From an uncultured Candidatus Saccharibacteria bacterium (GTDB taxonomy: Bacteria > Patescibacteriota > Minisyncoccia > Phycocordibacterales > Zambryskibacteraceae), in assembly GCA_964651655.1 (NCBI GenBank), contig CAZYVS010000002.1, positions 29,471 to 93,470 on the forward strand: a stretch of DNA of 64,000 bases. Reading direction: 5' to 3'. Both the position numbers and the translations under genes were made by a program. The notes below the pieces were generated by a model. That model made no database searches, had not been told where the DNA came from, and worked only from the letters and a program-made list of their open reading frames with translations. Below are positions 18,363 to 51,268 of the stretch, one piece after another. Numbering within the stretch: position 1 is the stretch's first letter; every line of letters starts with the position of its first letter.

Positions 18363-18440
18363 ACGCCATTAATTATATTGGGGTTCGTTAGAATAGTCTA
18401 GTATATGTATAATTACTCAAAAATCTGCTATAATTTCGGT

Positions 18441-19481
18441 ATGCGAAAATCAAAAACAACAAAGAAATTTCTATCTAGGCCGGTAGAACATATAGATATT
18501 AAAAAACTTGATCTCACGAAGACAGTAAAAGCCATGTCTAAAATGTCCTTTTCTGCGAGAGATGCAGCCAACGCAGCAGAAATGTATGCTCGAATGGTTA
18601 AAGATAATGATTGCGTTAATATTTTAACACTTGCTGGTAGTACCAGTGCAGCTGGTTGTATGCAAATTTATACAGACATGGTAAGACACAAAATGATTGA
18701 TGTGGTCGTAGCCACGGGTGCAAGTATTGTAGATATGGATTTTTTTGAAGCATTAGGATTTAAACATTACCAAGGCAGCCCCATTGTCGACGACAAAATG
18801 TTACGTAGTTTATATATCGACAGAATTTATGACACGTACATCAATGAAAACGATCTGCAGAAATGCGATGCGGCAATTATGGAAATTGCTAACGGCCTGA
18901 AAACACATCCTTATTCATCACAAGAATTTATAAGAGAAATGGGCAGATATTTGACAAAACGTTCAAAAAAAGACGACTCTCTTATACAAGCCGCGTTCGA
19001 AATGGGTGTTCCAATATTTTGCCCGGCGTTCTCAGACAGCAGTGCCGGTTTTGGTCTCGTAATGCATCAAGTAAAAAATCCGAGAGACCATGTTTCTATT
19101 GATTCGGTCAAAGATTTCTATCAGCTGACCCAAATAAAAATCAAAGCTAAAAATACAGGTTTGCTCATGATAGGTGGAGGAGTGCCCAAAAACTTCGCTC
19201 AAGATACTGTGGTGTGCGCTGAAGTGTTGGGACACAATGTTCCCATGCATAAGTACGCTATACAAATAACTGTTGCCGATGTCAGAGATGGCGCATGTTC
19301 TAGTTCCACCTTAAGAGAAGCTAACTCCTGGGGTAAGGTTGATAGCTTATCAGAACAAATGGTGTATGCGGAAGCGACTACAGTATTACCAATGATTGCC
19401 AGTTATGTATATCACCAAAAAGATTGGAAAAGGCGAACAAAAAAAGATTTTAACTCTGTATTAATAAAATTGTCCAGTTAA
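18441..19481 (+). CDS. Deoxyhypusine synthase-like (DHS family) protein
   Basis: VVATGASIVDMDFFEALGFKHYQG matches the DHS family core. An extended -10 (TGCTATAAT) sits 6 nt before the ATG (leaderless). Confidence 0.6.
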   Translation: MRKSKTTKKFLSRPVEHIDIKKLDLTKTVKAMSKMSFSARDAANAAEMYARMVKDNDCVNILTLAGSTSAAGCMQIYTDMVRHKMIDVVVATGASIVDMDFFEALGFKHYQGSPIVDDKMLRSLYIDRIYDTYINENDLQKCDAAIMEIANGLKTHPYSSQEFIREMGRYLTKRSKKDDSLIQAAFEMGVPIFCPAFSDSSAGFGLVMHQVKNPRDHVSIDSVKDFYQLTQIKIKAKNTGLLMIGGGVPKNFAQDTVVCAEVLGHNVPMHKYAIQITVADVRDGACSSSTLREANSWGKVDSLSEQMVYAEATTVLPMIASYVYHQKDWKRRTKKDFNSVLIKLSS

Positions 19482-22994: not shown

Positions 22995-23067
22995 GGGCTC
23001 ATAGTAAAGTGGTATTACACGGCATTCGCATTGCCGAGTCCCGGGTTCAATCCCCGGTGAGTCCACC
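22995..23067 (+). tRNA. tRNA-Ala (anticodon CGC)
   Basis: Manual fold: acceptor GGGCTCA/TGAGTCC with G3:U70, D stem GTAA/TTAC, anticodon stem CGGCA/TGCCG, loop TTCGCAT, T arm CCGGG-TTCAATC-CCCGG, discriminator A. Confidence 0.85.
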
Positions 23068-30426: not shown

Positions 30427-31755
30427 TCATTTGACGGGAAGTTTCTTCAAGAAGATATCGGCGCCATTCTCGGGAAAAGAACTTTTCCAAAATGGTCTGA
30501 TGGTGGCGGTCGCCTTAGCAACAGTCGGATAATTATTAAGAATGGAAGGAAGATCCTGTTTACTTCTCCCCAATAAATCGGCTTTTAGGGCCACCTCGTC
30601 CACATTCCATTCTATCGTCGTCTCACCCCTAACGGAAAAACTGATTTTGTTTGAAGACAGCGGATTAATTGACGCGTTGTTTGTCAAAGCAAATTCAAGC
30701 GAGTCGAGTTTATCGATATTCAGCGATTCACCGGCCGCTAAAGTGACTTTGTCAACAACCAATTCACGAGACAGATCGCTTCTTTTGAACATAACTCCGG
30801 CCAAGTCAGCAGACATATTTATCATCACCCCTTCCCCGTTGGTTGGAACCGATTGAGGCAACTCTTTAAAAGTGACCGAGGAAAGAGACGGCAACAAGAT
30901 AAAGTCTTCCGGCACTTGAGCTTTGGCTTCGGAAATTAATCCTTCTTTGAGCGCGGTTTCAAGTTGCTCTCTGACTCGCGCCCCATCTTCACTTTTGATT
31001 ATCTTTTCCGTACCGGAAAAGCCGCCGGACATTTCGGTCTTAGAACGAGCATACACGGAGGCAAACAGCGAAGTGCCCTTAAGCCCGGGAAGAGTAAAAT
31101 CGGCAAACCCGATATTGAATCCTTGGCCGGGACGTTCGGCATAGACCACCACTTCCAGAGCGCCCAATTTTTCTTCACCGTTGACCAGTTTCTTGCCGGG
31201 AATAACAATGGCATCCGGGACTTGATAAATTTTACCGTCCGGGGTTTCAAAACGCGTCGTGGCCCTCAACCTCTGTTCAACGATACTGGCATTATAGACA
31301 ACAATGGTGCCGCTAGCTTTTCTTTCTACTTCCTGTTCTCCGGATGTGGACACTTCTTGACCTTTCTCCATAGAAAGTTTAACAATGCTAAAAAGAAGTC
31401 CGCTCTCGCCCTCCTTGCGCGCCTCATACAAGCCACCGTCAAAAGACACTGCTTGAGATTTAGGCACATAGGCCAACGTGGCGCCGCCAAATACGGAAAG
31501 TATAGGAAAAATGAGTATCAGGACGGCGATGCCGATTGCTATCCACTTGCGTCTGCCCCGGCTATTGGCGGAACTACCGCCGTTTGGCGGAAAATTGAAA
31601 CTATTATCAGGCGATGAATCATTAAACGAATAATTTTCTTTTGAAGTTTGGGGCATTTCGCGACGCTCGATTCTGCGACGTCCCTCGGGAATAGGAATGT
31701 CCCGAATGCTTCTTTTTCTCTCTGGCACGACTATGTCTTCAATATGTTTCGGCAT
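30427..31755 (-). CDS. Hypothetical membrane-anchored protein (442 aa) at the position usually held by secY/adk/map
   Basis: Basic N-terminus, one TM helix, and a large extracytoplasmic domain with no recognisable motifs. Confidence 0.5.
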   Translation of the reverse strand: MPKHIEDIVVPERKRSIRDIPIPEGRRRIERREMPQTSKENYSFNDSSPDNSFNFPPNGGSSANSRGRRKWIAIGIAVLILIFPILSVFGGATLAYVPKSQAVSFDGGLYEARKEGESGLLFSIVKLSMEKGQEVSTSGEQEVERKASGTIVVYNASIVEQRLRATTRFETPDGKIYQVPDAIVIPGKKLVNGEEKLGALEVVVYAERPGQGFNIGFADFTLPGLKGTSLFASVYARSKTEMSGGFSGTEKIIKSEDGARVREQLETALKEGLISEAKAQVPEDFILLPSLSSVTFKELPQSVPTNGEGVMINMSADLAGVMFKRSDLSRELVVDKVTLAAGESLNIDKLDSLEFALTNNASINPLSSNKISFSVRGETTIEWNVDEVALKADLLGRSKQDLPSILNNYPTVAKATATIRPFWKSSFPENGADIFLKKLPVK

Positions 31756-31770
31756 GTCAAAAATTATAAC

Positions 31771-31796
31771 TTATTTATAGTGAGCTTGTCGAATTA
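31771..31796 (-). promoter_or_regulatory. Conserved intercistronic motif, copy e (alaS stop to the hypothetical gene)
   Basis: Coding-strand TAATTCGACAAGCTCACTATAAATAA, then a second TTATAAT 7 nt before the ATG. Confidence 0.55.
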
Positions 31797-33068
31797 TTTT
31801 TTAAATTTACGCCTTCCACCGGAACGCGAGATAGTTTGGTGTTTGCTCATTTCTTTGTCAAAAGCGGCGCGGTCGATTTTTATGCCCTTCTCCCCGGCCA
31901 GCTCTTCAGTCAATTCTATCGGGAAACCATAACTTGTGAAGAGGATAAAAGGATCAACCCCCTTATCAAACTGTTTGAGGCCTGATTCCAAAGTTTTGCC
32001 GAATTTTTCAATTTCCGTTGAGATAATATCCGCTATCGCCGGATTAAAGACATAAAGTCCCTTATAACTTTCATGATTAGAAACGGCTTTTGCCAGAGAA
32101 TTTATTGTTTTTAGATCACCTCCTATTTTTCTAACATGAACATAAGCGCGGCGAAGAAGCCGTCGTAAAATGTAACCCCGGCCGGTATTTGACGGTAAAA
32201 CACCGTCGCTTAGCGCAAAGACCGATGTTCGTATATGGTCGGCGATAATTCGTTTAGATCGGGTGAGAACGGAATCAAAACCATCAAACACCGAAATAAG
32301 CGGCGCAAACAGATCGGTGTCAAAAATATTATTTTTATTTTGAAGCGCCATAGTTAAACGCTCCAGCCCGGCGCCCGTATCAACATTTTTTTGTGATAAT
32401 TTATTTGTAATTTTTCCGTCTTTCTTCTCATATTCCATAAAGACATCGTTCCAAACTTCTACTACTTTCTGTTCTTTATCGGCCCTTTCATATTCTTGTT
32501 TGGTTAAATTTCCCAAGCCTTCGAGAGTAACGTCATAAAACATTTCCGTGTCCGGTCCGCACGGTCCGCTTTCTCCCGCGCTCCACCAATTTGATTTGGC
32601 TCCCAAAAAAAAGATTCTGTTCTTCGGCATATACTTCTGCCAAATTTTAAAAGCTTCTTCATCTTTCGGGGCATTTTCATCTCCCTCAAACACAGTAACG
32701 TAGAGTCGTTTAGGATCCAGGCCAAATCCTTCCTCTTTGTTTGTCAATAATTCATAACTCCACTGAATTGCTTCTTCTTTAAAGTAATCACCTAGAGACC
32801 AGTTACCAAGCATCTCAAAAAAAGTATCGTGAGTATTATCACCGACTTCGTTAATATCTTGGGTGCGTACACACTTCTGAATATTTACCAAACGTCTGCC
32901 TTGCGGATGTTTCTTACCCATAAGATATGGCACTAGAGGTTGCATCCCGGCGGTGGTGAATAGAACTGAAGAGTCATTCTCCGGCACGAGCGAGGCCGAC
33001 GGGATAACTGTGTGTCCCCGGTTCTCGAAAAAAGTCAGGAATCGCCGCCGAATTTCTTCAGATTGCAT
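31794..33068 (-). CDS. alaS: Alanyl-tRNA synthetase, N-terminal catalytic plus tRNA-recognition domains only (no editing or C-Ala domains)
   Basis: EIRRRFLTFFENRGHTVIPSASLVPENDSSVLFTTAGM and ADHIRTSVFALSDGVLPSNTGRGYILRRLLRR align to AlaRS residues 1 to about 455. The ORF ends there. Confidence 0.8.
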   Translation of the reverse strand: MQSEEIRRRFLTFFENRGHTVIPSASLVPENDSSVLFTTAGMQPLVPYLMGKKHPQGRRLVNIQKCVRTQDINEVGDNTHDTFFEMLGNWSLGDYFKEEAIQWSYELLTNKEEGFGLDPKRLYVTVFEGDENAPKDEEAFKIWQKYMPKNRIFFLGAKSNWWSAGESGPCGPDTEMFYDVTLEGLGNLTKQEYERADKEQKVVEVWNDVFMEYEKKDGKITNKLSQKNVDTGAGLERLTMALQNKNNIFDTDLFAPLISVFDGFDSVLTRSKRIIADHIRTSVFALSDGVLPSNTGRGYILRRLLRRAYVHVRKIGGDLKTINSLAKAVSNHESYKGLYVFNPAIADIISTEIEKFGKTLESGLKQFDKGVDPFILFTSYGFPIELTEELAGEKGIKIDRAAFDKEMSKHQTISRSGGRRKFKK

Positions 33069-33086
33069 TAGATGAATATAACACAA

Positions 33087-38511: not shown

Positions 38512-39570
38512 TTAGACGTTGTGGTAGCGGCCGGAAGAGTCTTTCTTAAAGTATTTCGGATTCTGAAGGTTCACTAAGATAGTATTCTCTTTAACGTAAC
38601 GCTCTTTGAGCACTTTCTCTATAATTTTATCTTTTGCCAGAGGGCCTTCCTTTTCTAAAATTTTTTTGATGACATCTTTAACCACACCGGATATATATCC
38701 CCATTCGGAGAGAGCGTAAAGGCCGCGCCCCACCAAAACGAATCTTGGGTCCTTGATCAGCTCATTGTGCGTGGTGGCCACATGCGCCTTTTTATTGAAG
38801 TACAGAGTGATCGCCTTTGCCACTTCTTTGAAATGGATTGGAGAACCATGCTTTCTAATGACTAAAAAGGCGTAGTCACGCATGCCTTTCGCATTGACAT
38901 TCGAGGAAGAGGCGCGACCCCATTCGCCCAAAGGATTCTTGCCGATTTTGTGAGAGATGGAAAACCAACGTTTGACCACTTCTTCATTCTTATATTTCTC
39001 GTTTAAATCTTTGACTTCTTCAAGAAAAGAACTAATAAGATCACTCTCAATTACGAGTTCATCATCAGACAACGAGGCGTATAGTTTGCGAAGCGCGGAT
39101 TTAATCTTATCCGCTAACTCCCGATCCACATGCCAGTGATGTTTAAATTCTTCATCGGCCTGCTCGCGTTTAAATTCCTCACCGATAATCAATAAAAAAT
39201 AGAAATGGTTCTGAACGCTTGGATCCTTGCTTAAATGTCTTAACAAATCCTTCTCAGATAGAATACCTCCCAGACCAAGAATAATTTCTTTCAATTCAAT
39301 AAAAACGGACTCAAGATCTTTGTAAATCTTTGATTTGCGAACAGTCAAAAGGGAATGATTTTCTATTTGACGCACTCGCTCTCTGGTAATGCCGTATTTT
39401 TTGCCGATAGCATCTAGGGTAAACTTGGCAGCTTTGGACCCCAGTCCGTATCGACTAACGATAATATCCTGACCGCGTTTGGTTAAAACTGATAATAACC
39501 GTTTGGTGACCTCTTTGGGCTTAAAACTTATAGCAATCTTCTCACTCATGGTTTCTCTTATTTGTATCAC
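38512..39570 (-). CDS. Protein with an N-terminal sigma-70 region-4-like HTH
   Basis: DIIVSRYGLGSKAAKFTLDAIGKKYGITRERVRQIENHSL resembles sigma70_r4. The rest is unassigned. Confidence 0.5.
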   Translation of the reverse strand: MIQIRETMSEKIAISFKPKEVTKRLLSVLTKRGQDIIVSRYGLGSKAAKFTLDAIGKKYGITRERVRQIENHSLLTVRKSKIYKDLESVFIELKEIILGLGGILSEKDLLRHLSKDPSVQNHFYFLLIIGEEFKREQADEEFKHHWHVDRELADKIKSALRKLYASLSDDELVIESDLISSFLEEVKDLNEKYKNEEVVKRWFSISHKIGKNPLGEWGRASSSNVNAKGMRDYAFLVIRKHGSPIHFKEVAKAITLYFNKKAHVATTHNELIKDPRFVLVGRGLYALSEWGYISGVVKDVIKKILEKEGPLAKDKIIEKVLKERYVKENTILVNLQNPKYFKKDSSGRYHNV

Positions 39571-39602: not shown

Positions 39603-41810
39603 TCAAGTAGCAATGCTGATAATCTTATTGGGCACAATAATTATTTTTTTAGGCTCTTTGTTTTTCAACCATTTTTGAACTTCCGGCAGAGCCAGAGCGT
39701 TCGTTTTAATTTCTTCCTCACTCTGACCACGAATAACAAGTAAATCGGCTCTTACTCTGCCATCAATTTGAATAGCTACAGTGATTTCATTTTTGACCAA
39801 TCGTTTTGAATCGTAAGTCGGCCAACTTTGAATATGAACGGAGTCCTTGTGTCCAAGAGAAGCCCACAATTCTTCGGTAATATGCGGAGCAAGAGGCGCA
39901 AGAAGCAAAATTAGAGTCTCAAATTCTTTTTGGGAAATTTCTTTTTGTTTATCCAGAGTGTTGACATAAATCATCAGGGCGGATACGGCAGTGTTGAATC
40001 CCATGGTTTCTATATCATCAGATACTTTCTTTATTGTCTGATACATCAAAGTCTCGCTCTTTAAGGTCTGACCTTTCAAAACCTTGGATTGTAACCTCCA
40101 CACTTTTTCCAAAAACCGGCGCGGCCCAACAAGCGCGTCCTCGCTCCAGGCGATAGTGTGTTCAAAGGGCCCCATAAACATCTCGTAGAGCCGCAGGGTG
40201 TCCGCGCCAAAACGTTCTACTATCGTATCGGGGTTAATGACATTACCCCTTGATTTGCTCATCTTCTCTCCCCCTTCGGCCAGAATCAGTCCGTGTGAAG
40301 TGCGCTTTTTATACGGTTCGCTTGTGGAAACAAGTTTCAAATCGTAGAGAAATTTATTCCAAAACCGCGAATATAATAGATGGAGCACGGTGTGCTCCAT
40401 ACCACCGTTATACCAGTCGACAGGCATAAAATGCTTGAAATTTTCAATTTGTAATTTCCAATTTTCAATAGAAACGGAATGTATAAATCCTACCTTATCA
40501 AAAAGATACGCGAGAAAATACCAAGAAGAGCCGGCCCAATTGGGCATAACATCAGTTTCTCTTTTAGCTCTTCCACCACACTTTGGACATATCACATTCA
40601 CCCATGCATCAATGTTCGCTAACGGTGATTCCCCATCCTCTCTCGGTTGATATTTTTCAACTTGAGGCAGTTCTACCGGCAAATCTTTCTCCGGCACCGG
40701 CACCACGCCGCATTTACCGCAATGAATGACCGGTATCGGTTCACCCCAATAACGCTGACGTGAAAAAATCCAATCACGTAGTTTGTATTTGGTGACTCTT
40801 TTACCAAAATCTTCAAATCCGGCTCTTTTGTATTCATCGATAATTGATAGATTGTGCTTTTTGGCAAACACCATATCGCGTTCGTCATCAGCTGGCACAC
40901 CCATAATCGCGCCAGTACCATAATCGGACATCACATATTCTGCTTCCCAAACCGGAATTTTTTCTTTCGTGGCAGGATTAATGGCATATTCTCCAGTGAA
41001 TTTGTCCTCCTTACCCGCCTTAACTAAGAAAGTAGCTCCGAAAATAGTGTCGGGTCGTGTGGTAAACACTTTTATAGGTTCAAGCTGTAAGCTGTTAGCT
41101 GAAAGCTGAAAGCTGATTTCTACTCCTTCGCTTCTACCGATCCAATTTTTCTGTTGAGTTTTGACCCGTTCCGGATAATCTACATCGTCTAAATCTTTTT
41201 CAAGTCTTTCCGCATATTTGGTAATGGCAAGCATCCATTGTTCTTTCTCTTTTTGCTCAACAGATGCGCCACAGCGTTCGCACCCATTGTCAATTACTTC
41301 TTCGTTGGCTAAACCAATTTTACAGTTCGAACACCAATTGATAGGAATCTTGGCCTTGTACGCCAAACCATTTTCAAGAAATTTTAAAAATATCCATTGC
41401 GTCCATTTATAATACTTTGGATCGGTTGTATTTATTTCCCGTGACCAATCAAAAGAAAGCCCGAGAGACTGAATTTGTCGGCGAAAAGTATCCGTATTTT
41501 CTTTTGTCACTACTTTAGGGTCCTTGCCGGTCTTGAGAGCATAATTTTCCGTCGGCAAACCAAAGGCATCCCAACCGATGGGATATAAAACATTAAACCC
41601 TTCCATTCGGCGTTTGCGAGAGACAATATCCATCGCTGTATAACTCCTGATATGCCCGACATGCAGACCGTCTCCGGATGGATAAGGAAATTCTATTAGC
41701 GTGTAATATTTTGGTTTCTTAGAAGAATCCTGTGCTTGGTAGACGCCAGATTTCTCCCACTCCTTTTGCCATTTCCCTTCAATTTCTTTAGGATTGTACT
41801 CCTTAGCCAT
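39603..41810 (-). CDS. leuS: Leucyl-tRNA synthetase lacking most of the CP1 editing domain
   Basis: HVGHIRSYTAMD (HIGH) and KMSKS. Only about 60 aa separate TTRPDT from GTGAIMGVPADDERD, versus about 180 in canonical LeuRS. The protein is 735 aa in total. Confidence 0.9.
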   Translation of the reverse strand: MAKEYNPKEIEGKWQKEWEKSGVYQAQDSSKKPKYYTLIEFPYPSGDGLHVGHIRSYTAMDIVSRKRRMEGFNVLYPIGWDAFGLPTENYALKTGKDPKVVTKENTDTFRRQIQSLGLSFDWSREINTTDPKYYKWTQWIFLKFLENGLAYKAKIPINWCSNCKIGLANEEVIDNGCERCGASVEQKEKEQWMLAITKYAERLEKDLDDVDYPERVKTQQKNWIGRSEGVEISFQLSANSLQLEPIKVFTTRPDTIFGATFLVKAGKEDKFTGEYAINPATKEKIPVWEAEYVMSDYGTGAIMGVPADDERDMVFAKKHNLSIIDEYKRAGFEDFGKRVTKYKLRDWIFSRQRYWGEPIPVIHCGKCGVVPVPEKDLPVELPQVEKYQPREDGESPLANIDAWVNVICPKCGGRAKRETDVMPNWAGSSWYFLAYLFDKVGFIHSVSIENWKLQIENFKHFMPVDWYNGGMEHTVLHLLYSRFWNKFLYDLKLVSTSEPYKKRTSHGLILAEGGEKMSKSRGNVINPDTIVERFGADTLRLYEMFMGPFEHTIAWSEDALVGPRRFLEKVWRLQSKVLKGQTLKSETLMYQTIKKVSDDIETMGFNTAVSALMIYVNTLDKQKEISQKEFETLILLLAPLAPHITEELWASLGHKDSVHIQSWPTYDSKRLVKNEITVAIQIDGRVRADLLVIRGQSEEEIKTNALALPEVQKWLKNKEPKKIIIVPNKIISIAT

Positions 41811-41832: not shown

Positions 41833-42783
41833 CTATTGTTTCAGTCTTACAGGATAAAGTTCTGGATCAATGGTACGAGAGAAACACTGACGACCGGTTT
41901 CGTGTTGCCAATTTTCATTAATTTTACCCATCGGTTCTGGATAAATTATTCGTGCCGTAGATTCAACATTATTTTGCGACGCCTTATTGAATTCCGCACA
42001 AAGATTGAAGGATAAGGCTCCAGTCCTCTCATATTCATAAGAATTCTTTGTCTGCGGATCAACCGGAGTAATAAATCCGGATATTGGATCTTCCAAGTCA
42101 GCAAGCGTCGCGGGTAGTGTCTCCTTTTGTTGCCAGTAATTCACAATCTGCCACTGAATATTTTGTAAATCAGAAATTTTTTGCGAATCATAACGAAGCA
42201 TGCGTTGACTCTGCGGAGTTCCCAACACGCCAAAACCGGCGGCAATAGAACCGATGACAAGAACCGTTCCCACCAACCTCCAGATATTTCTGCGAGCGCC
42301 TGCCAACCTATCCTTCAAGTCGTCCATAAAGTAACCAAAGATGCATCCGGCCACTATCAAGACGGAAAGGATTTTTAAAAGAAACGCAGTTGTCATCTCT
42401 TGGCCATCAAGGAAGTAGTAGAGAAGAGTTACTAAATCGCCAGCCAACACTCCTCCGGCCAGAAAGAGAGTGATATAGATAAGCCATTTGCGGACAGGAT
42501 AGTCCTTGCGACTCGGATCTTCCGCATATCCTTTTCGAACTATATTTGTCAAAAAAAGAAAAAGTGGAAAGACCACAATAAGCGCTGCCACCGGCAAAGA
42601 AATAAAGGTGGAACTGTAATAAGTATATTGATTGACCTGCGGAAAAGCGGCGTTGATGACACGAAACAAAATGTTTAATAAGGCCACTGTGCCTGCGTAC
42701 AAAAGCGCAATGATAGCAATGTGTAAAAAGAAATCCTTGGCGGTGATTTTGGTATTCATAGTTTTAATTATATCAAATATCAA
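41833..42783 (-). CDS. Polytopic membrane protein with a C-terminal pseudopilin (GspG)-like domain
   Basis: C-terminal LQNIQWQIVNYWQQKETLPATLADL...PVDPQTKNSYEY resembles the T2SS/T4P pilin globular domain. Confidence 0.4.
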   Translation of the reverse strand: MIFDIIKTMNTKITAKDFFLHIAIIALLYAGTVALLNILFRVINAAFPQVNQYTYYSSTFISLPVAALIVVFPLFLFLTNIVRKGYAEDPSRKDYPVRKWLIYITLFLAGGVLAGDLVTLLYYFLDGQEMTTAFLLKILSVLIVAGCIFGYFMDDLKDRLAGARRNIWRLVGTVLVIGSIAAGFGVLGTPQSQRMLRYDSQKISDLQNIQWQIVNYWQQKETLPATLADLEDPISGFITPVDPQTKNSYEYERTGALSFNLCAEFNKASQNNVESTARIIYPEPMGKINENWQHETGRQCFSRTIDPELYPVRLKQ

Positions 42784-51040: not shown

Positions 51041-51116
51041 TGGTGGACCGTGGGAGATTCGAACTCCCGACCTCCACATTGCAAATGTGGCGCTCTACCA
51101 ACTAAGCTAACGGCCC
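51041..51116 (-). tRNA. tRNA-Ala (anticodon TGC), with CCA encoded
   Basis: Reverse complement: GGGCCGT-TA-GCTTAGTTGGTAGAGC-G-CCACA-TTTGCAA-TGTGG-AGGTC-GGGAG-TTCGAAT-CTCCC-ACGGTCC-A-CCA, with G3:U70. Confidence 0.85.
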
Positions 51117-51194: not shown

Positions 51195-51267
51195 GGGCCT
51201 GTAGCTCAATTGGTAGAGCGCAGCTATGGCATAGCTGAGGTAAGGGGATCGTAGCCCCTCAGGTCCA
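51195..51267 (+). tRNA. tRNA-Ala (anticodon GGC) with an atypical T-loop
   Basis: GGGCCTG-TA-GCTCAATTGGTAGAGC-G-CAGCT-ATGGCAT-AGCTG-AGGTA-AGGGG-ATCGTAG-CCCCT-CAGGTCC-A, with G3:U70. The T-loop has A54/T58 where T54/A58 is usual. Confidence 0.7.
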
Positions 51268-51268
51268 C

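What the first reader, a model, noticed from the sequence alone, without database searches (positions are those of the whole stretch)
39603..41810. Leucyl-tRNA synthetase with the CP1 editing domain largely deleted
Only about 60 residues separate the conserved TTRPDT motif from the GTGAIMGVPADDERD block, where canonical bacterial LeuRS carries about 180 residues of the CP1 hydrolytic editing domain. The 735-aa total length also falls short of the usual 800-860 aa. Editing-deficient LeuRS is known from some Mollicutes and is linked to mistranslation tolerance. An additional low-complexity insert (ISFQLSANSLQLEP, encoded by AGCTGWN heptamer repeats at 41093-41127) lies just before TTRPDT. The truncated AlaRS in this window fits the same picture of reduced proofreading.
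Basis: partly seen in the sequence, partly recalled or inferred. Interest (0 to 1): 0.6.

Follow-up and report, generated by a model that had tools for sequence, protein, structure and literature searches.

The report
LeuRS with a core-only editing domain
This is an intact leucyl-tRNA synthetase from a Candidate Phyla Radiation bacterium whose proofreading (CP1) domain has lost only its two peripheral bacterial insertions, so proofreading is probably retained, not lost.

Summary
The 735-aa ORF at 39603-41810 (-) is real. It is a bacterial-type LeuRS, 100% identical to a Candidatus Zambryskibacteria MAG protein.

TTRPDT and GTGAIMGVPADDERD are 42 residues apart. The canonical spacing is 78-82, not about 180, because both motifs lie inside CP1.

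CP1 measures 115 residues against 188 in E. coli, about 39% shorter. The two deletions fall on the published bacterial-specific insertions I2b (three helices) and I4b (long loop). The leucine-specific domain is also replaced, by EGGE.

The CP1 catalytic core is complete. The T-rich region, Y330 equivalent, GTG loop, M336, D342, R344 and D345 equivalents are all present.
- They are essentially invariant in 102 Parcubacteria sequences.
- Both motifs are also kept in 104 Woesebacteria/Microgenomates sequences (the representative used as query is 47% identical to this protein).
- The core is as conserved as the synthetic site; dN/dS is about 0.06.
- It models confidently onto solved CP1 domains (TM 0.72-0.77).

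The "editing-deficient, Mycoplasma-like" reading is therefore not supported. The best reading is a naturally minimised, probably active editing domain. I found no description of it in the searched literature.

Relatives carry NUDIX or hydrolase domains inserted in the same CP1 loops.

The parts
39603..41810 (-). leuS: complete bacterial-type leucyl-tRNA synthetase, 735 aa
   Evidence: ORF. TIGR00396 leuS_bact 887 bits against cut-off 548. PDB LeuRS hits at E=4e-187. 100% identical to an NCBI Candidatus Zambryskibacteria MAG protein.
41652..41663 (-). HIGH signature (HVGH, residues 50-53)
   Evidence: Motif position; aligned to E. coli HMGH 49-52.
41271..41333 (-). Zn-binding CxxC...CxxC element before CP1 (C160-C180)
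   Evidence: CSNC and CERC motifs. This region aligns with T. thermophilus and E. coli LeuRS.
40782..41123 (-). Minimised CP1 editing domain, residues 230-343. It holds about 115 residues between the WIGRSEG and KLRDW anchors, against 188 in E. coli.
   Evidence: Anchor-to-anchor lengths. PF13603 matched in two pieces. AF2 pLDDT 72-91 per 10-residue block over residues 251-340 of the whole-protein model and 81 mean in the domain-only model. Foldseek TM 0.72-0.77 to solved LeuRS CP1.
41082..41116 (.). 7-nt tandem repeat (AAGCTGA x5 on the + strand) inside the variable beta1-beta2 hairpin of CP1; lies within the codons for ISFQLSANSLQLEP
   Evidence: TRF. Peptide coordinates 41076-41117. The same repeat is present in an 84%-identical relative's gene. 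pLDDT is below 50 at residues 240-242.
41046..41063 (-). Threonine-rich editing motif TTRPDT (residues 250-255 = E. coli T247-T252)
   Evidence: T250, R252, P253 and T255 are invariant, T251 is 101/102 and D254 is 99/102 in mini-CP1 sequences.
41001..41024 (-). Site of the I2b deletion. A GKED turn (residues 266-269) joins strands beta3 and beta4 where canonical bacterial LeuRS has about 36-40 residues forming three helices (E. coli about 263-298, including E292/A293).
   Evidence: Alignments. Predicted strands 261-265 and 270-277. I2b definition from PMC3747510.
40875..40919 (-). GTG loop and conserved Asp block GTGAIMGVPADDERD (residues 298-312 = E. coli G331-D345)
   Evidence: G298, G300, M303, D309, R311 and D312 are invariant in 102 sequences.
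40806..40853 (-). Site of the I4b deletion (residues about 320-335, LSIIDEYKRAGFEDFG). About 40 residues of loop and hairpin found in canonical LeuRS are absent here. In relatives a NUDIX domain is inserted at this place.
   Evidence: Post-Asp segment is 32 residues against 67-73 in canonical LeuRS. Alignment with NUDIX-bearing relatives. Pfam on those relatives.
40266..40277 (-). EGGE tetrapeptide (residues 512-515) in place of the leucine-specific domain, directly before KMSKS
   Evidence: Alignment gap against E. coli A571-M617 and against T. thermophilus 580-637. M. mobile has GKDG at this place (PMC3643597).
40251..40265 (-). KMSKS signature (residues 516-520)

Best explanation
The gene encodes the functional LeuRS of a Candidatus Zambryskibacteria (Parcubacteria, CPR) bacterium.

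Its CP1 editing domain has been trimmed to the conserved catalytic core, in the order beta1-beta2-alpha1-beta3-beta4-beta5-beta6-alpha2-...-beta7. Two things were lost precisely: the bacterial-specific peripheral insertions I2b (three helices between beta3 and beta4) and I4b (the long loop after alpha2). The leucine-specific domain is reduced to a tetrapeptide.

Every element known to build the hydrolytic pocket is retained: the T-rich peptide, the Tyr that contacts the A76 phosphate, the GTG loop, and the Asp that holds the substrate alpha-amino group.

The most likely mechanism is therefore the ordinary one. The 3' end of mischarged tRNALeu (carrying Nva, Ile or Met) moves from the synthetic site to this small CP1 and is hydrolysed there.

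Shown here: the gene, the architecture, the conservation and the predicted fold. Inferred: that hydrolysis still occurs, and at what efficiency.

Loss of I2b also removes the E292-type contact to the acceptor stem. tRNA positioning during aminoacylation probably differs in detail from E. coli.
For: Identity and integrity:
- TIGR00396 887 bits.
- HIGH, KMSKS and both Zn motifs are present.
- Full-length alignment to T. thermophilus, E. coli and N. gonorrhoeae LeuRS.

Architecture:
- Spacing from T-rich motif to GTG loop is 42 residues, and from the Asp block to the RDW anchor 32.
- The canonical values are 78-82 and 67-73 in E. coli, in about 60 GTDB genomes and in many cluster representatives.
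- The gaps coincide with I2b and I4b as defined structurally in PMC3747510.

Active-site retention:
- All E. coli editing residues are matched.
- In 102 mini-CP1 sequences T250, R252, T255, G298, G300, M303, D309, R311 and D312 are invariant.

Selection:
- Mean pairwise identity of the CP1 core is 0.83, equal to the Rossmann fold (0.83-0.84) and above the anticodon-binding/C-terminal part (0.65).
- dN/dS is 0.057 for CP1 against 0.065 for the whole gene, measured against an 84%-identical relative.

Depth:
- A separate CPR group, named Woesebacteria/Microgenomates where sources name it, also has short CP1 (A=42-53, B=30-38). The representative used as query (P0215) is 47% identical to this protein.
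- TTRP[DE]T and GTGxxMGVPxxDxxD are kept in all 104 sequences whose anchors could be found.

Fold:
- The domain-only AF2 model has pLDDT 81 and pTM 0.76, with nine of the ten core elements in the published order.
- Foldseek TM is 0.72-0.77 to solved CP1 domains.

Precedent:
- The LSD can be replaced by a tetrapeptide with aminoacylation and editing retained (PMC3643597).
- PMC3747510 describes the CP1 catalytic core as highly conserved between eukaryal and bacterial LeuRS, with I2b and I4b as bacterial additions beside it. Human cytosolic LeuRS is reported to edit (PMC3017609, abstract).
Against: - No biochemical data exist, so activity is inferred from conservation only.
- CP1 also has roles in aminoacylation and tRNA translocation, which could by themselves maintain parts of the domain.
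- The Y330 equivalent is Val in 8 of 102 sequences. The His before the first Asp (E. coli H341) is Asp in most of this clade.
- PMC4138327 reports that mutations in a special insertion of prokaryotic CP1 may disturb domain orientation and lower post-transfer editing, so loss of I2b could reduce efficiency.
- E292, important for aminoacylation in E. coli, lies in the deleted segment (PMC3664829).
- Helix alpha3 of the core is not predicted as a helix.
- The homologue alignments used for modelling are shallow (at least 66-70% identity), and the whole-protein model is mediocre (pLDDT 67).
- dS is saturated, so the dN/dS values are rough.
Confidence: 0.7

Rival explanations
1. The shortened CP1 is an inactive remnant, the enzyme does not proofread, and the organism tolerates Leu-codon mistranslation as some Mycoplasma do. 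The remnant would be kept only as a structural hinge or for tRNA handling during aminoacylation.
For: - About 39% of CP1 is gone, including I2b with the E292/A293 region.
- Mutations in the prokaryotic CP1 insertion are reported to lower editing (PMC4138327).
- Small symbiotic genomes are the setting in which loss of editing is known, for example M. mobile (PMC3643597).
- The AlaRS ORF in the window lacks an editing domain.
- No trans-editing domain was seen among the 41 window ORFs scanned.
Against: - All pocket-forming residues are retained and essentially invariant across 102 sequences.
- The T-rich and GTG/Asp motifs are also kept in a second CPR group whose query representative is 47% identical to this protein.
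- T252 and D345 equivalents have no known role outside editing (established knowledge of LeuRS).
- The CP1 core evolves as slowly as the synthetic site.
- The known editing-free LeuRS replaces CP1 by a 9-residue linker rather than keeping a conserved core.
Confidence: 0.2
2. The mini-CP1 is catalytically active but has shifted in role or specificity. Examples would be editing that relies mostly on tRNA-dependent pre-transfer hydrolysis, a changed non-cognate substrate range, or cooperation with a separate factor encoded elsewhere in the genome. Such a factor might correspond to the NUDIX or hydrolase modules that relatives carry inside CP1.
For: - Relatives at 69% identity or more show every combination of short and long segments. 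They also carry NUDIX or serine-hydrolase insertions in the same loops, so this surface is functionally plastic.
- The H341 equivalent has changed to Asp across the clade.
- In E. coli, replacing the LSD by GKDG raised the share of tRNA-independent pre-transfer editing (PMC3643597).
Against: - There is no direct evidence for a changed specificity.
- The specificity-determining T252 equivalent and the pocket residues M336 and V338 are unchanged.
- No candidate partner was found in the 64-kb window.
Confidence: 0.08
3. An artefact: a mis-assembled or decaying gene (pseudogene) in a metagenome-assembled genome.
For: The source is a MAG, and a frameshift-prone 7-nt repeat lies inside the gene.
Against: - The reading frame is intact with all catalytic motifs.
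- 100 of the 120 closest homologues, from many separate samples and sources, have the identical 42/32 architecture.
- Purifying selection is strong.
- Gene order (DUF5671 protein, leuS, sigma-70 region 4 / HARE-HTH protein) is conserved in an independent contig.
Confidence: 0.02

Closest known systems
Canonical bacterial LeuRS (E. coli 860 aa; T. thermophilus 878 aa; PDB 4AQ7/4ARC, 1H3N/1OBC)
   Same: - Same family and domain order, with HIGH and KMSKS.
- The Zn hairpin lies before CP1, and CP1 is inserted at the bacterial position.
- Identical T-rich, GTG and Asp editing motifs.
- C-terminal tRNA-binding domain is present.
   Different: - CP1 lacks I2b (about 36-40 residues, three helices, including E292/A293).
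- CP1 lacks I4b with its hairpin (about 40 residues).
- The leucine-specific domain (E. coli A571-M617) is replaced by EGGE.
- R416 is Lys.
- Total length is 735 aa.
Mycoplasma mobile LeuRS (637 aa, PDB 3ZIU), the natural CP1-less, editing-free LeuRS
   Same: - A small LeuRS from a reduced genome.
- The leucine-specific domain is replaced by a tetrapeptide (GKDG there, EGGE here).
- It is the third-best PDB sequence match.
   Different: M. mobile replaces the entire CP1 by the nonapeptide KEEIDGKIT and cannot do post-transfer editing. The window protein keeps about 115 residues of CP1 with all catalytic motifs.
CP1 catalytic core as defined for S. pneumoniae LeuRS-CP1 (PDB 4K47/4K48; PMC3747510)
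   Same: - The predicted element order is beta1-beta2-alpha1-beta3-beta4-beta5-beta6-alpha2-...-beta7.
- The T-rich region follows beta2 and the Asp lies in alpha2.
- Foldseek TM normalised to the query is 0.65 to 4K47 and 0.65 to 2AJG.
   Different: - The solved bacterial domains all carry I2b and I4b beside the core. Here both are absent.
- Helix alpha3 is short or not predicted as a helix.
Archaeal/eukaryal cytosolic LeuRS CP1
   Same: According to PMC3747510 these share the conserved catalytic core, and I2b and I4b are described there as bacterial additions. Human cytosolic LeuRS is reported to edit (PMC3017609, abstract).
   Different: - They carry their own insertions (four eukaryal-specific ones, including I4ae).
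- They insert CP1 at a different point of the CP1 hairpin (PMC4138327).
- The window protein is clearly of the bacterial type.
CPR relatives with NUDIX-bearing CP1 (e.g. P0075, P0098, P0105, P0122, P0124)
   Same: Same LeuRS lineage (59-73% identity for the examples with a reported value). Some have the same I2b deletion (A=42).
   Different: They keep the I4b hairpin and carry a roughly 120-residue NUDIX domain inserted in the I4b loop. The window protein has neither.

Membership tests
Bacterial-type leucyl-tRNA synthetase (TIGR00396 leuS_bact) | Whole-protein score above the curated equivalog cut-off | tested here: met
   887.2 bits against a cut-off of 548.4, matched in three stretches because of the internal deletions.
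Bacterial-type leucyl-tRNA synthetase (TIGR00396 leuS_bact) | Class I signatures HIGH and KMSKS in a split Rossmann fold | tested here: met
   HVGH at 50-53 and KMSKS at 516-520; PF00133 matched in two stretches.
Bacterial-type leucyl-tRNA synthetase (TIGR00396 leuS_bact) | CP1 inserted after the Zn-containing CP1 hairpin (bacterial insertion point), plus a C-terminal tRNA-binding extension | tested here: met
   CSNC/CERC at 160-180 precede CP1. The alignment to T. thermophilus LeuRS runs to residue 733 of 735 (chain residue 874 of 878).
Bacterial-type leucyl-tRNA synthetase (TIGR00396 leuS_bact) | Leucine-specific domain before KMSKS (present in most, not all, members) | tested here: not met
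   Replaced by EGGE. The domain is shown to be dispensable in PMC3643597.
Editing-competent CP1 domain of LeuRS | Threonine-rich region T-T-R-P-D-T (E. coli T247-T252) | tested here: met
   TTRPDT at 250-255. T250, R252 and T255 are invariant and T251 is 101/102 in mini-CP1 sequences.
Editing-competent CP1 domain of LeuRS | GTG loop with the preceding Tyr (E. coli Y330-G333) that contacts the A76 phosphate | tested here: met
   Y297-G298-T299-G300. Tyr in 94/102 sequences and Val in 8. Role of Y330 from PMC3664829.
Editing-competent CP1 domain of LeuRS | Universally conserved Asp (E. coli D345) and D342/R344 | tested here: met
   D309, R311 and D312 are invariant in 102 sequences.
Editing-competent CP1 domain of LeuRS | Catalytic-core fold beta1-beta2-alpha1-beta3-beta4-beta5-beta6-alpha2-alpha3-beta7 | tested here: inconclusive
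Editing-competent CP1 domain of LeuRS | Bacterial insertions I2b and I4b beside the core | tested here: not met
   A GKED turn replaces I2b, and 18 coil residues replace I4b and its hairpin.
Editing-competent CP1 domain of LeuRS | Hydrolysis of mischarged tRNALeu | not testable with these tools
   Needs a deacylation assay with the recombinant enzyme.
CP1-less, editing-deficient LeuRS (Mycoplasma mobile type) | CP1 replaced by a short linker, or editing motifs degenerate | tested here: not met
   About 115 residues of CP1 remain with all motifs intact and conserved. M. mobile has a 9-residue linker.

The most novel reading that the evidence does not exclude
Two major CPR groups, Parcubacteria such as Zambryskibacteria and Microgenomates such as Woesebacteria, use a LeuRS whose editing domain is a naturally occurring catalytic core only. 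It has about 115 residues and lacks I2b and I4b, yet it would still proofread. That would make it the smallest native cis-acting CP1 editing module known in bacteria.

The surface loops vacated by these insertions also act as docking sites for whole enzymatic domains in sister lineages. NUDIX is found in the I4b loop, and a serine hydrolase or a nucleotidyltransferase-like region plus a DUF559 endonuclease in the beta1-beta2 hairpin. This would point to undescribed accessory chemistry, such as Ap4A or aminoacyl-adenylate clearance, coupled to an aminoacyl-tRNA synthetase.
Probability: 0.45. Interest if true: 0.6.

Novelty: new variant of a known kind. Interest (0 to 1): 0.42.

Why it matters
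If the core-only CP1 is active, it defines by natural experiment the minimal structure needed for post-transfer editing by LeuRS. It would also show that I2b, I4b and the leucine-specific domain are dispensable together in a living lineage.

That bears on three things:
- models of how class Ia editing domains evolved;
- the design of benzoxaborole-type inhibitors, which bind this pocket and exploit I4b differences;
- claims that reduced-genome bacteria generally give up translational fidelity.

If it is inactive despite perfect motif conservation, that would be a more surprising result about what CP1 does besides editing. Either outcome can be tested directly with one recombinant protein.

There is also a practical point. 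Several of these proteins are labelled only 'class I tRNA ligase family protein' in public records. This may be because the architecture departs from the standard models, which I did not test.

Tried and rejected
1. The idea that CP1 is 'largely deleted' was rejected after measuring anchor-to-anchor lengths and motif spacing in E. coli, about 60 GTDB genomes and 150 cluster representatives.

It returned mostly Firmicutes LeuRS of about 800 aa and only a few CPR genomes. It gave the canonical baseline but not the taxonomic distribution of the short form.

3. The whole-protein AF2 model was mediocre (pLDDT 67) because the alignment is shallow. Its Foldseek match to LeuRS structures (TM 0.5-0.6, rmsd 17-19 A) says little about CP1. 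I therefore modelled the domain alone.

6. I tested whether the 442-aa ORF downstream of the short AlaRS is the missing AlaRS half. It has no Pfam hit even at E=10 and no PDB sequence match, so it is not recognisably AlaRS.

7. I looked for trans-editing domains (AlaX/tRNA_SAD, YbaK, DTD) among 41 window ORFs and found none. The rest of the genome is out of reach.

8. Literature searches for CPR/Patescibacteria/Parcubacteria together with LeuRS, CP1, editing domain or Nudix found nothing relevant.

9. The 7-nt repeat as a phase-variation or frameshift site was considered and set aside. It lies in an essential gene, is in frame, and is conserved in an 84%-identical relative.
Full report
**1. 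What is at the coordinates**

The window has a single uninterrupted ORF at 39603..41810 on the minus strand, ATG to stop, 735 aa.
- It scores 887 bits against NCBIfam TIGR00396 (bacterial leucine--tRNA ligase, cut-off 548).
- Its best matches among solved structures are T. thermophilus, M. mobile, N. gonorrhoeae and E. coli LeuRS (E=4e-187 to 1e-157).
- It is 100% identical to a protein that NCBI lists as leucine--tRNA ligase of a Candidatus Zambryskibacteria MAG. The 120 closest homologues (69-84% identity) are nearly all 715-780 aa; the sources that name them give Zambryskibacteria, Parcubacteria or Patescibacteria.
- HVGH (50-53), KMSKS (516-520) and two CxxC pairs are in place.

The rest of the window looks like an ordinary CPR chromosome segment. 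It holds dnaK-grpE-dnaJ, rpsK-rpsD-rpoA, uvrABC, mreB, murG/ftsW, AsnRS/AspRS-type and AlaRS genes. GC content is 36-46%.

**2. Checking the observation**

They are 42 residues apart.

The comparison value was wrong.
- In E. coli, TTRPDT is 247-252 and GTGAVMAVPGHDQRD is 331-345, which is 78 residues apart.
- In about 60 genomes of other phyla and in most cluster representatives the spacing is 80-82.
- Both motifs lie inside CP1 (E. coli G225-Y415 according to PMC3664829). Their spacing is therefore not the size of CP1.

I measured CP1 between the flanking anchors WIGRSEG and RDWxxSRQRYWG. It is 188 residues in E. coli and 115 here, about 39% shorter.

The alignment with E. coli shows where the 125 missing residues of the protein are:
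- about 36-40 between the T-rich motif and the GTG loop;
- about 40 after the Asp block;
- about 44 at the leucine-specific domain, where the sequence reads LILAEGGEKMSKS;
- a few in the anticodon-binding region.

The 'low-complexity insert' ISFQLSANSLQLEP (residues 232-245, window 41076-41117) sits in the variable hairpin before the T-rich motif.
- It is 3 residues longer than the hairpin in E. coli.
- It is 9 residues longer than the commonest hairpin length among the 120 closest homologues.
- The 7-nt repeat is at 41082-41116.
- The same repeat is recognisable in the gene of an 84%-identical relative. It is inherited and not an assembly artefact.

**3. What exactly has been removed from CP1**

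PMC3747510 describes the bacterial LeuRS CP1 as a conserved catalytic core in the order beta1-beta2-alpha1-beta3-beta4-beta5-beta6-alpha2-alpha3-beta7. Two bacterial-specific additions sit beside the core:
- I2b, three helices between beta3 and beta4;
- I4b, a long loop between alpha2 and alpha3, described as not conserved among bacteria.

The active site is made by the T-rich region after beta2, the GTG loop, and the conserved Asp in alpha2.

Both AF2 models of the window protein give the same elements (whole protein; CP1 alone with pLDDT 81 and pTM 0.76): strands 224/226-236, 246-250, 261-265, 270-277, 284-290, 301-304 and 337-342/344, and helices 253-258 and 310-318.
- Only four residues (GKED 266-269) link beta3 to beta4, where I2b should be.
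- Only 18 coil residues (319-336) follow alpha2, where I4b, its hairpin (GxLxNSxxFxG) and alpha3 should be.
- The domain model superposes on CP1 of solved T. thermophilus, E. coli and N. gonorrhoeae LeuRS with TM 0.72-0.77 normalised to the query.

The domain is not 'largely deleted'. It has been stripped to its catalytic core.

**4. Is the editing site still there, and is it under selection?**

Every residue that I know to line the LeuRS editing pocket has its counterpart:

| Window protein | E. coli |
|---|---|
| T250/T251/R252/D254/T255 | T247/T248/R249/D251/T252 |
| Y297 | Y330 |
| G298-T299-G300 | G331-T332-G333 |
| M303 | M336 |
| V305 | V338 |
| D309 | D342 |
| R311 | R344 |
| D312 | D345 |

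Conservation in the 102 homologues with the short architecture:
- T250, R252, P253, T255, G298, G300, M303, D309, R311 and D312 are invariant.
- T251 is 101/102 and Y297 is 94/102 (8 Val).
- Mean pairwise identity of the CP1 core (0.83) equals that of the two Rossmann halves (0.83-0.84). It exceeds the anticodon-binding/C-terminal part (0.65).

Against the gene of P0002 (locus L082), dN/dS is 0.057 for CP1 and 0.035 for its core, against 0.065 for the whole gene. dS is saturated, so these are rough values.

The short form is not confined to one shallow clade. I took P0215, the most divergent cluster representative with the same 42/30 architecture (47% identical to the window protein), and searched around it. 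This retrieved 118 further LeuRS, named Woesebacteria or Microgenomates where the sources name them.
- All 104 with recognisable anchors have short CP1: 42-53 residues in the first segment and 30-38 in the second.
- All 104 keep TTRP[DE]T and GTGxxMGVPxxDxxD.

This pattern is what is expected of a working hydrolytic site. The known editing-free LeuRS of M. mobile instead replaces CP1 by a 9-residue linker (PMC3643597).

**5. Mechanism proposed**

Shown:
- an intact LeuRS;
- a CP1 reduced to its core;
- a conserved pocket;
- loss of the LSD.

Inferred:
- The enzyme charges tRNALeu and clears Nva-, Ile- or Met-tRNALeu in the usual way, by moving the 3' end into the small CP1.
- The T-rich peptide and D312 position the substrate for hydrolysis, and Y297 contacts the A76 phosphate (role of Y330 from PMC3664829).

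Support for dispensability:
- E. coli LeuRS with GKDG in place of the LSD keeps 55% of aminoacylation and keeps editing (PMC3643597).
- PMC3747510 describes I2b and I4b as bacterial additions beside a catalytic core shared with eukaryal LeuRS. Human cytosolic LeuRS is reported to edit (PMC3017609, abstract).

Caveats:
- In E. coli, E292 inside I2b contacts the acceptor stem and pairs with R416 during aminoacylation. Here I2b is absent and R416 is Lys.
- Mutations in the prokaryotic CP1 insertion are said to lower post-transfer editing through domain misorientation (PMC4138327).

Efficiency or the balance of editing pathways may therefore differ.

**6. Evolutionary context seen on the way**

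Among sequences at 69% identity or more to the window protein, the two segments vary independently. With the first number the T-rich-to-GTG spacing and the second the Asp-to-RDW spacing, I saw 42/32 (100 of 120), 82/32, 42/82-91, 42/213 and 82/213.

The 213 class carries a NUDIX domain (PF00293) inserted in the I4b loop, with the I4b hairpin retained after it.
- Of the 311 sequences in which the Asp-to-anchor length could be measured, 47 have an insert of this size, and 27 of those have a strict Nudix box.
- 40 of the 93 cluster representatives that could be measured fall in this class. Representatives may be biased towards long members.

Other relatives carry inserts in the beta1-beta2 hairpin, which is the hairpin that holds the 7-nt repeat here:
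- a serine/alpha-beta-hydrolase domain (P0103, residues 246-353);
- a nucleotidyltransferase-like region plus a DUF559 endonuclease domain (P0069).

CP1 surface loops in CPR LeuRS are thus a hot spot for both loss and gain of modules.

I found no paper describing the short CP1 or these insertions in the searchable library. That is absence of evidence within that library only.

**7. The AlaRS remark**

The ORF at 31794-33086 (-) is a 430-aa AlaRS. It matches only the aminoacylation and tRNA-recognition part: Pfam PF01411 positions 1-432 of 552, and PDB N-terminal fragments. The next ORF (30427-31755, 442 aa) has no detectable similarity to anything in Pfam or PDB.

A preprint describes 'small-AlaRS' forms in CPR and archaea that still keep the editing domain (10.1101/2023.05.29.542759). 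This ORF is shorter still. Whether editing of Ser/Gly-tRNAAla is supplied in trans cannot be decided from 64 kb, and it says nothing about LeuRS.

**8. Verdict**

It is correct that CP1 is reduced. It is not supported that the editing site is gone or that the enzyme resembles the Mollicutes case.
- This is a new variant of a known kind: a bacterial LeuRS with a core-only CP1 and no LSD, characteristic of at least two large CPR groups.
- Interest is moderate. The retained-editing hypothesis and the domain insertions in relatives are cheap to test and would define the minimal LeuRS editing module.

Noticed in passing
Relatives P0075, P0091, P0098, P0099, P0105, P0119, P0122, P0124 and others (not in the window); the equivalent site in the window is 40806-40853: Many CPR LeuRS carry a roughly 120-residue NUDIX hydrolase domain (PF00293) inserted in the I4b loop of the CP1 editing domain. 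Of 311 sequences in which the site could be measured, 47 have an insert of this size, and 27 of those have a strict Nudix box. I found no description of this architecture in the searched literature.
   Followed up: partly
Relatives P0103 (residues 246-353) and P0069 (residues about 265-548); the equivalent hairpin in the window is 41064-41123: The beta1-beta2 hairpin of CP1, which holds the 7-nt repeat in the window gene, hosts a serine/alpha-beta-hydrolase domain in P0103. In P0069 it hosts a nucleotidyltransferase-like region plus a DUF559 endonuclease domain.
   Followed up: partly
window 31794-33086 (-) and 30427-31755 (-): The AlaRS ORF is 430 aa and covers only the aminoacylation and tRNA-recognition parts; it has no editing or C-Ala domain. 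The ORF directly downstream (442 aa) has no Pfam hit even at E=10 and no PDB sequence match. No AlaX-type domain was seen among the 41 window ORFs scanned.
   Followed up: partly
window 41082-41116: A 7-nt tandem repeat (five copies) lies inside the essential leuS reading frame. It is also recognisable in the gene of an 84%-identical relative, although synonymous sites are otherwise saturated. It probably records slippage that lengthened the hairpin by 9 residues in this sub-clade.
   Followed up: partly
window 22995-23067 (+), 51041-51116 (-), 51195-51268 (+): The only tRNA genes found in the window are three tRNA-Ala isoacceptors (anticodons CGC, UGC, GGC). Two of them are 80 bp apart on opposite strands.
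   Followed up: no
window 41833-42783 (-), 39603-41810 (-), 38512-39570 (-); locus L082: The gene order DUF5671 membrane protein, leuS, then a protein with sigma-70 region 4 and HARE-HTH domains is the same in an independent metagenome contig that carries an 84%-identical leuS.
   Followed up: no
window 18405-19481 (+): A deoxyhypusine synthase family gene (PF01916, E=2e-94) lies on the opposite strand to most neighbouring genes. This is unexpected in a bacterium, since hypusination is an archaeal/eukaryotic modification of IF5A.
   Followed up: no
Homologue list (e.g. P0044, P0066, P0080, P0083, P0085, P0088): Several close homologues of this LeuRS are named only 'class I tRNA ligase family protein' in NCBI records. 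This may be because the atypical CP1 and inserted domains lower their scores against the standard LeuRS model; I did not test that.
   Followed up: no
Cluster representatives (e.g. P0123 1178 aa, P0134 1330 aa, P0233 1344 aa; P0173 638 aa): LeuRS length among the nearest 50%-identity cluster representatives ranges from 638 to 1344 aa. This points to further large insertions and at least one much shorter form, which I did not dissect.
   Followed up: no
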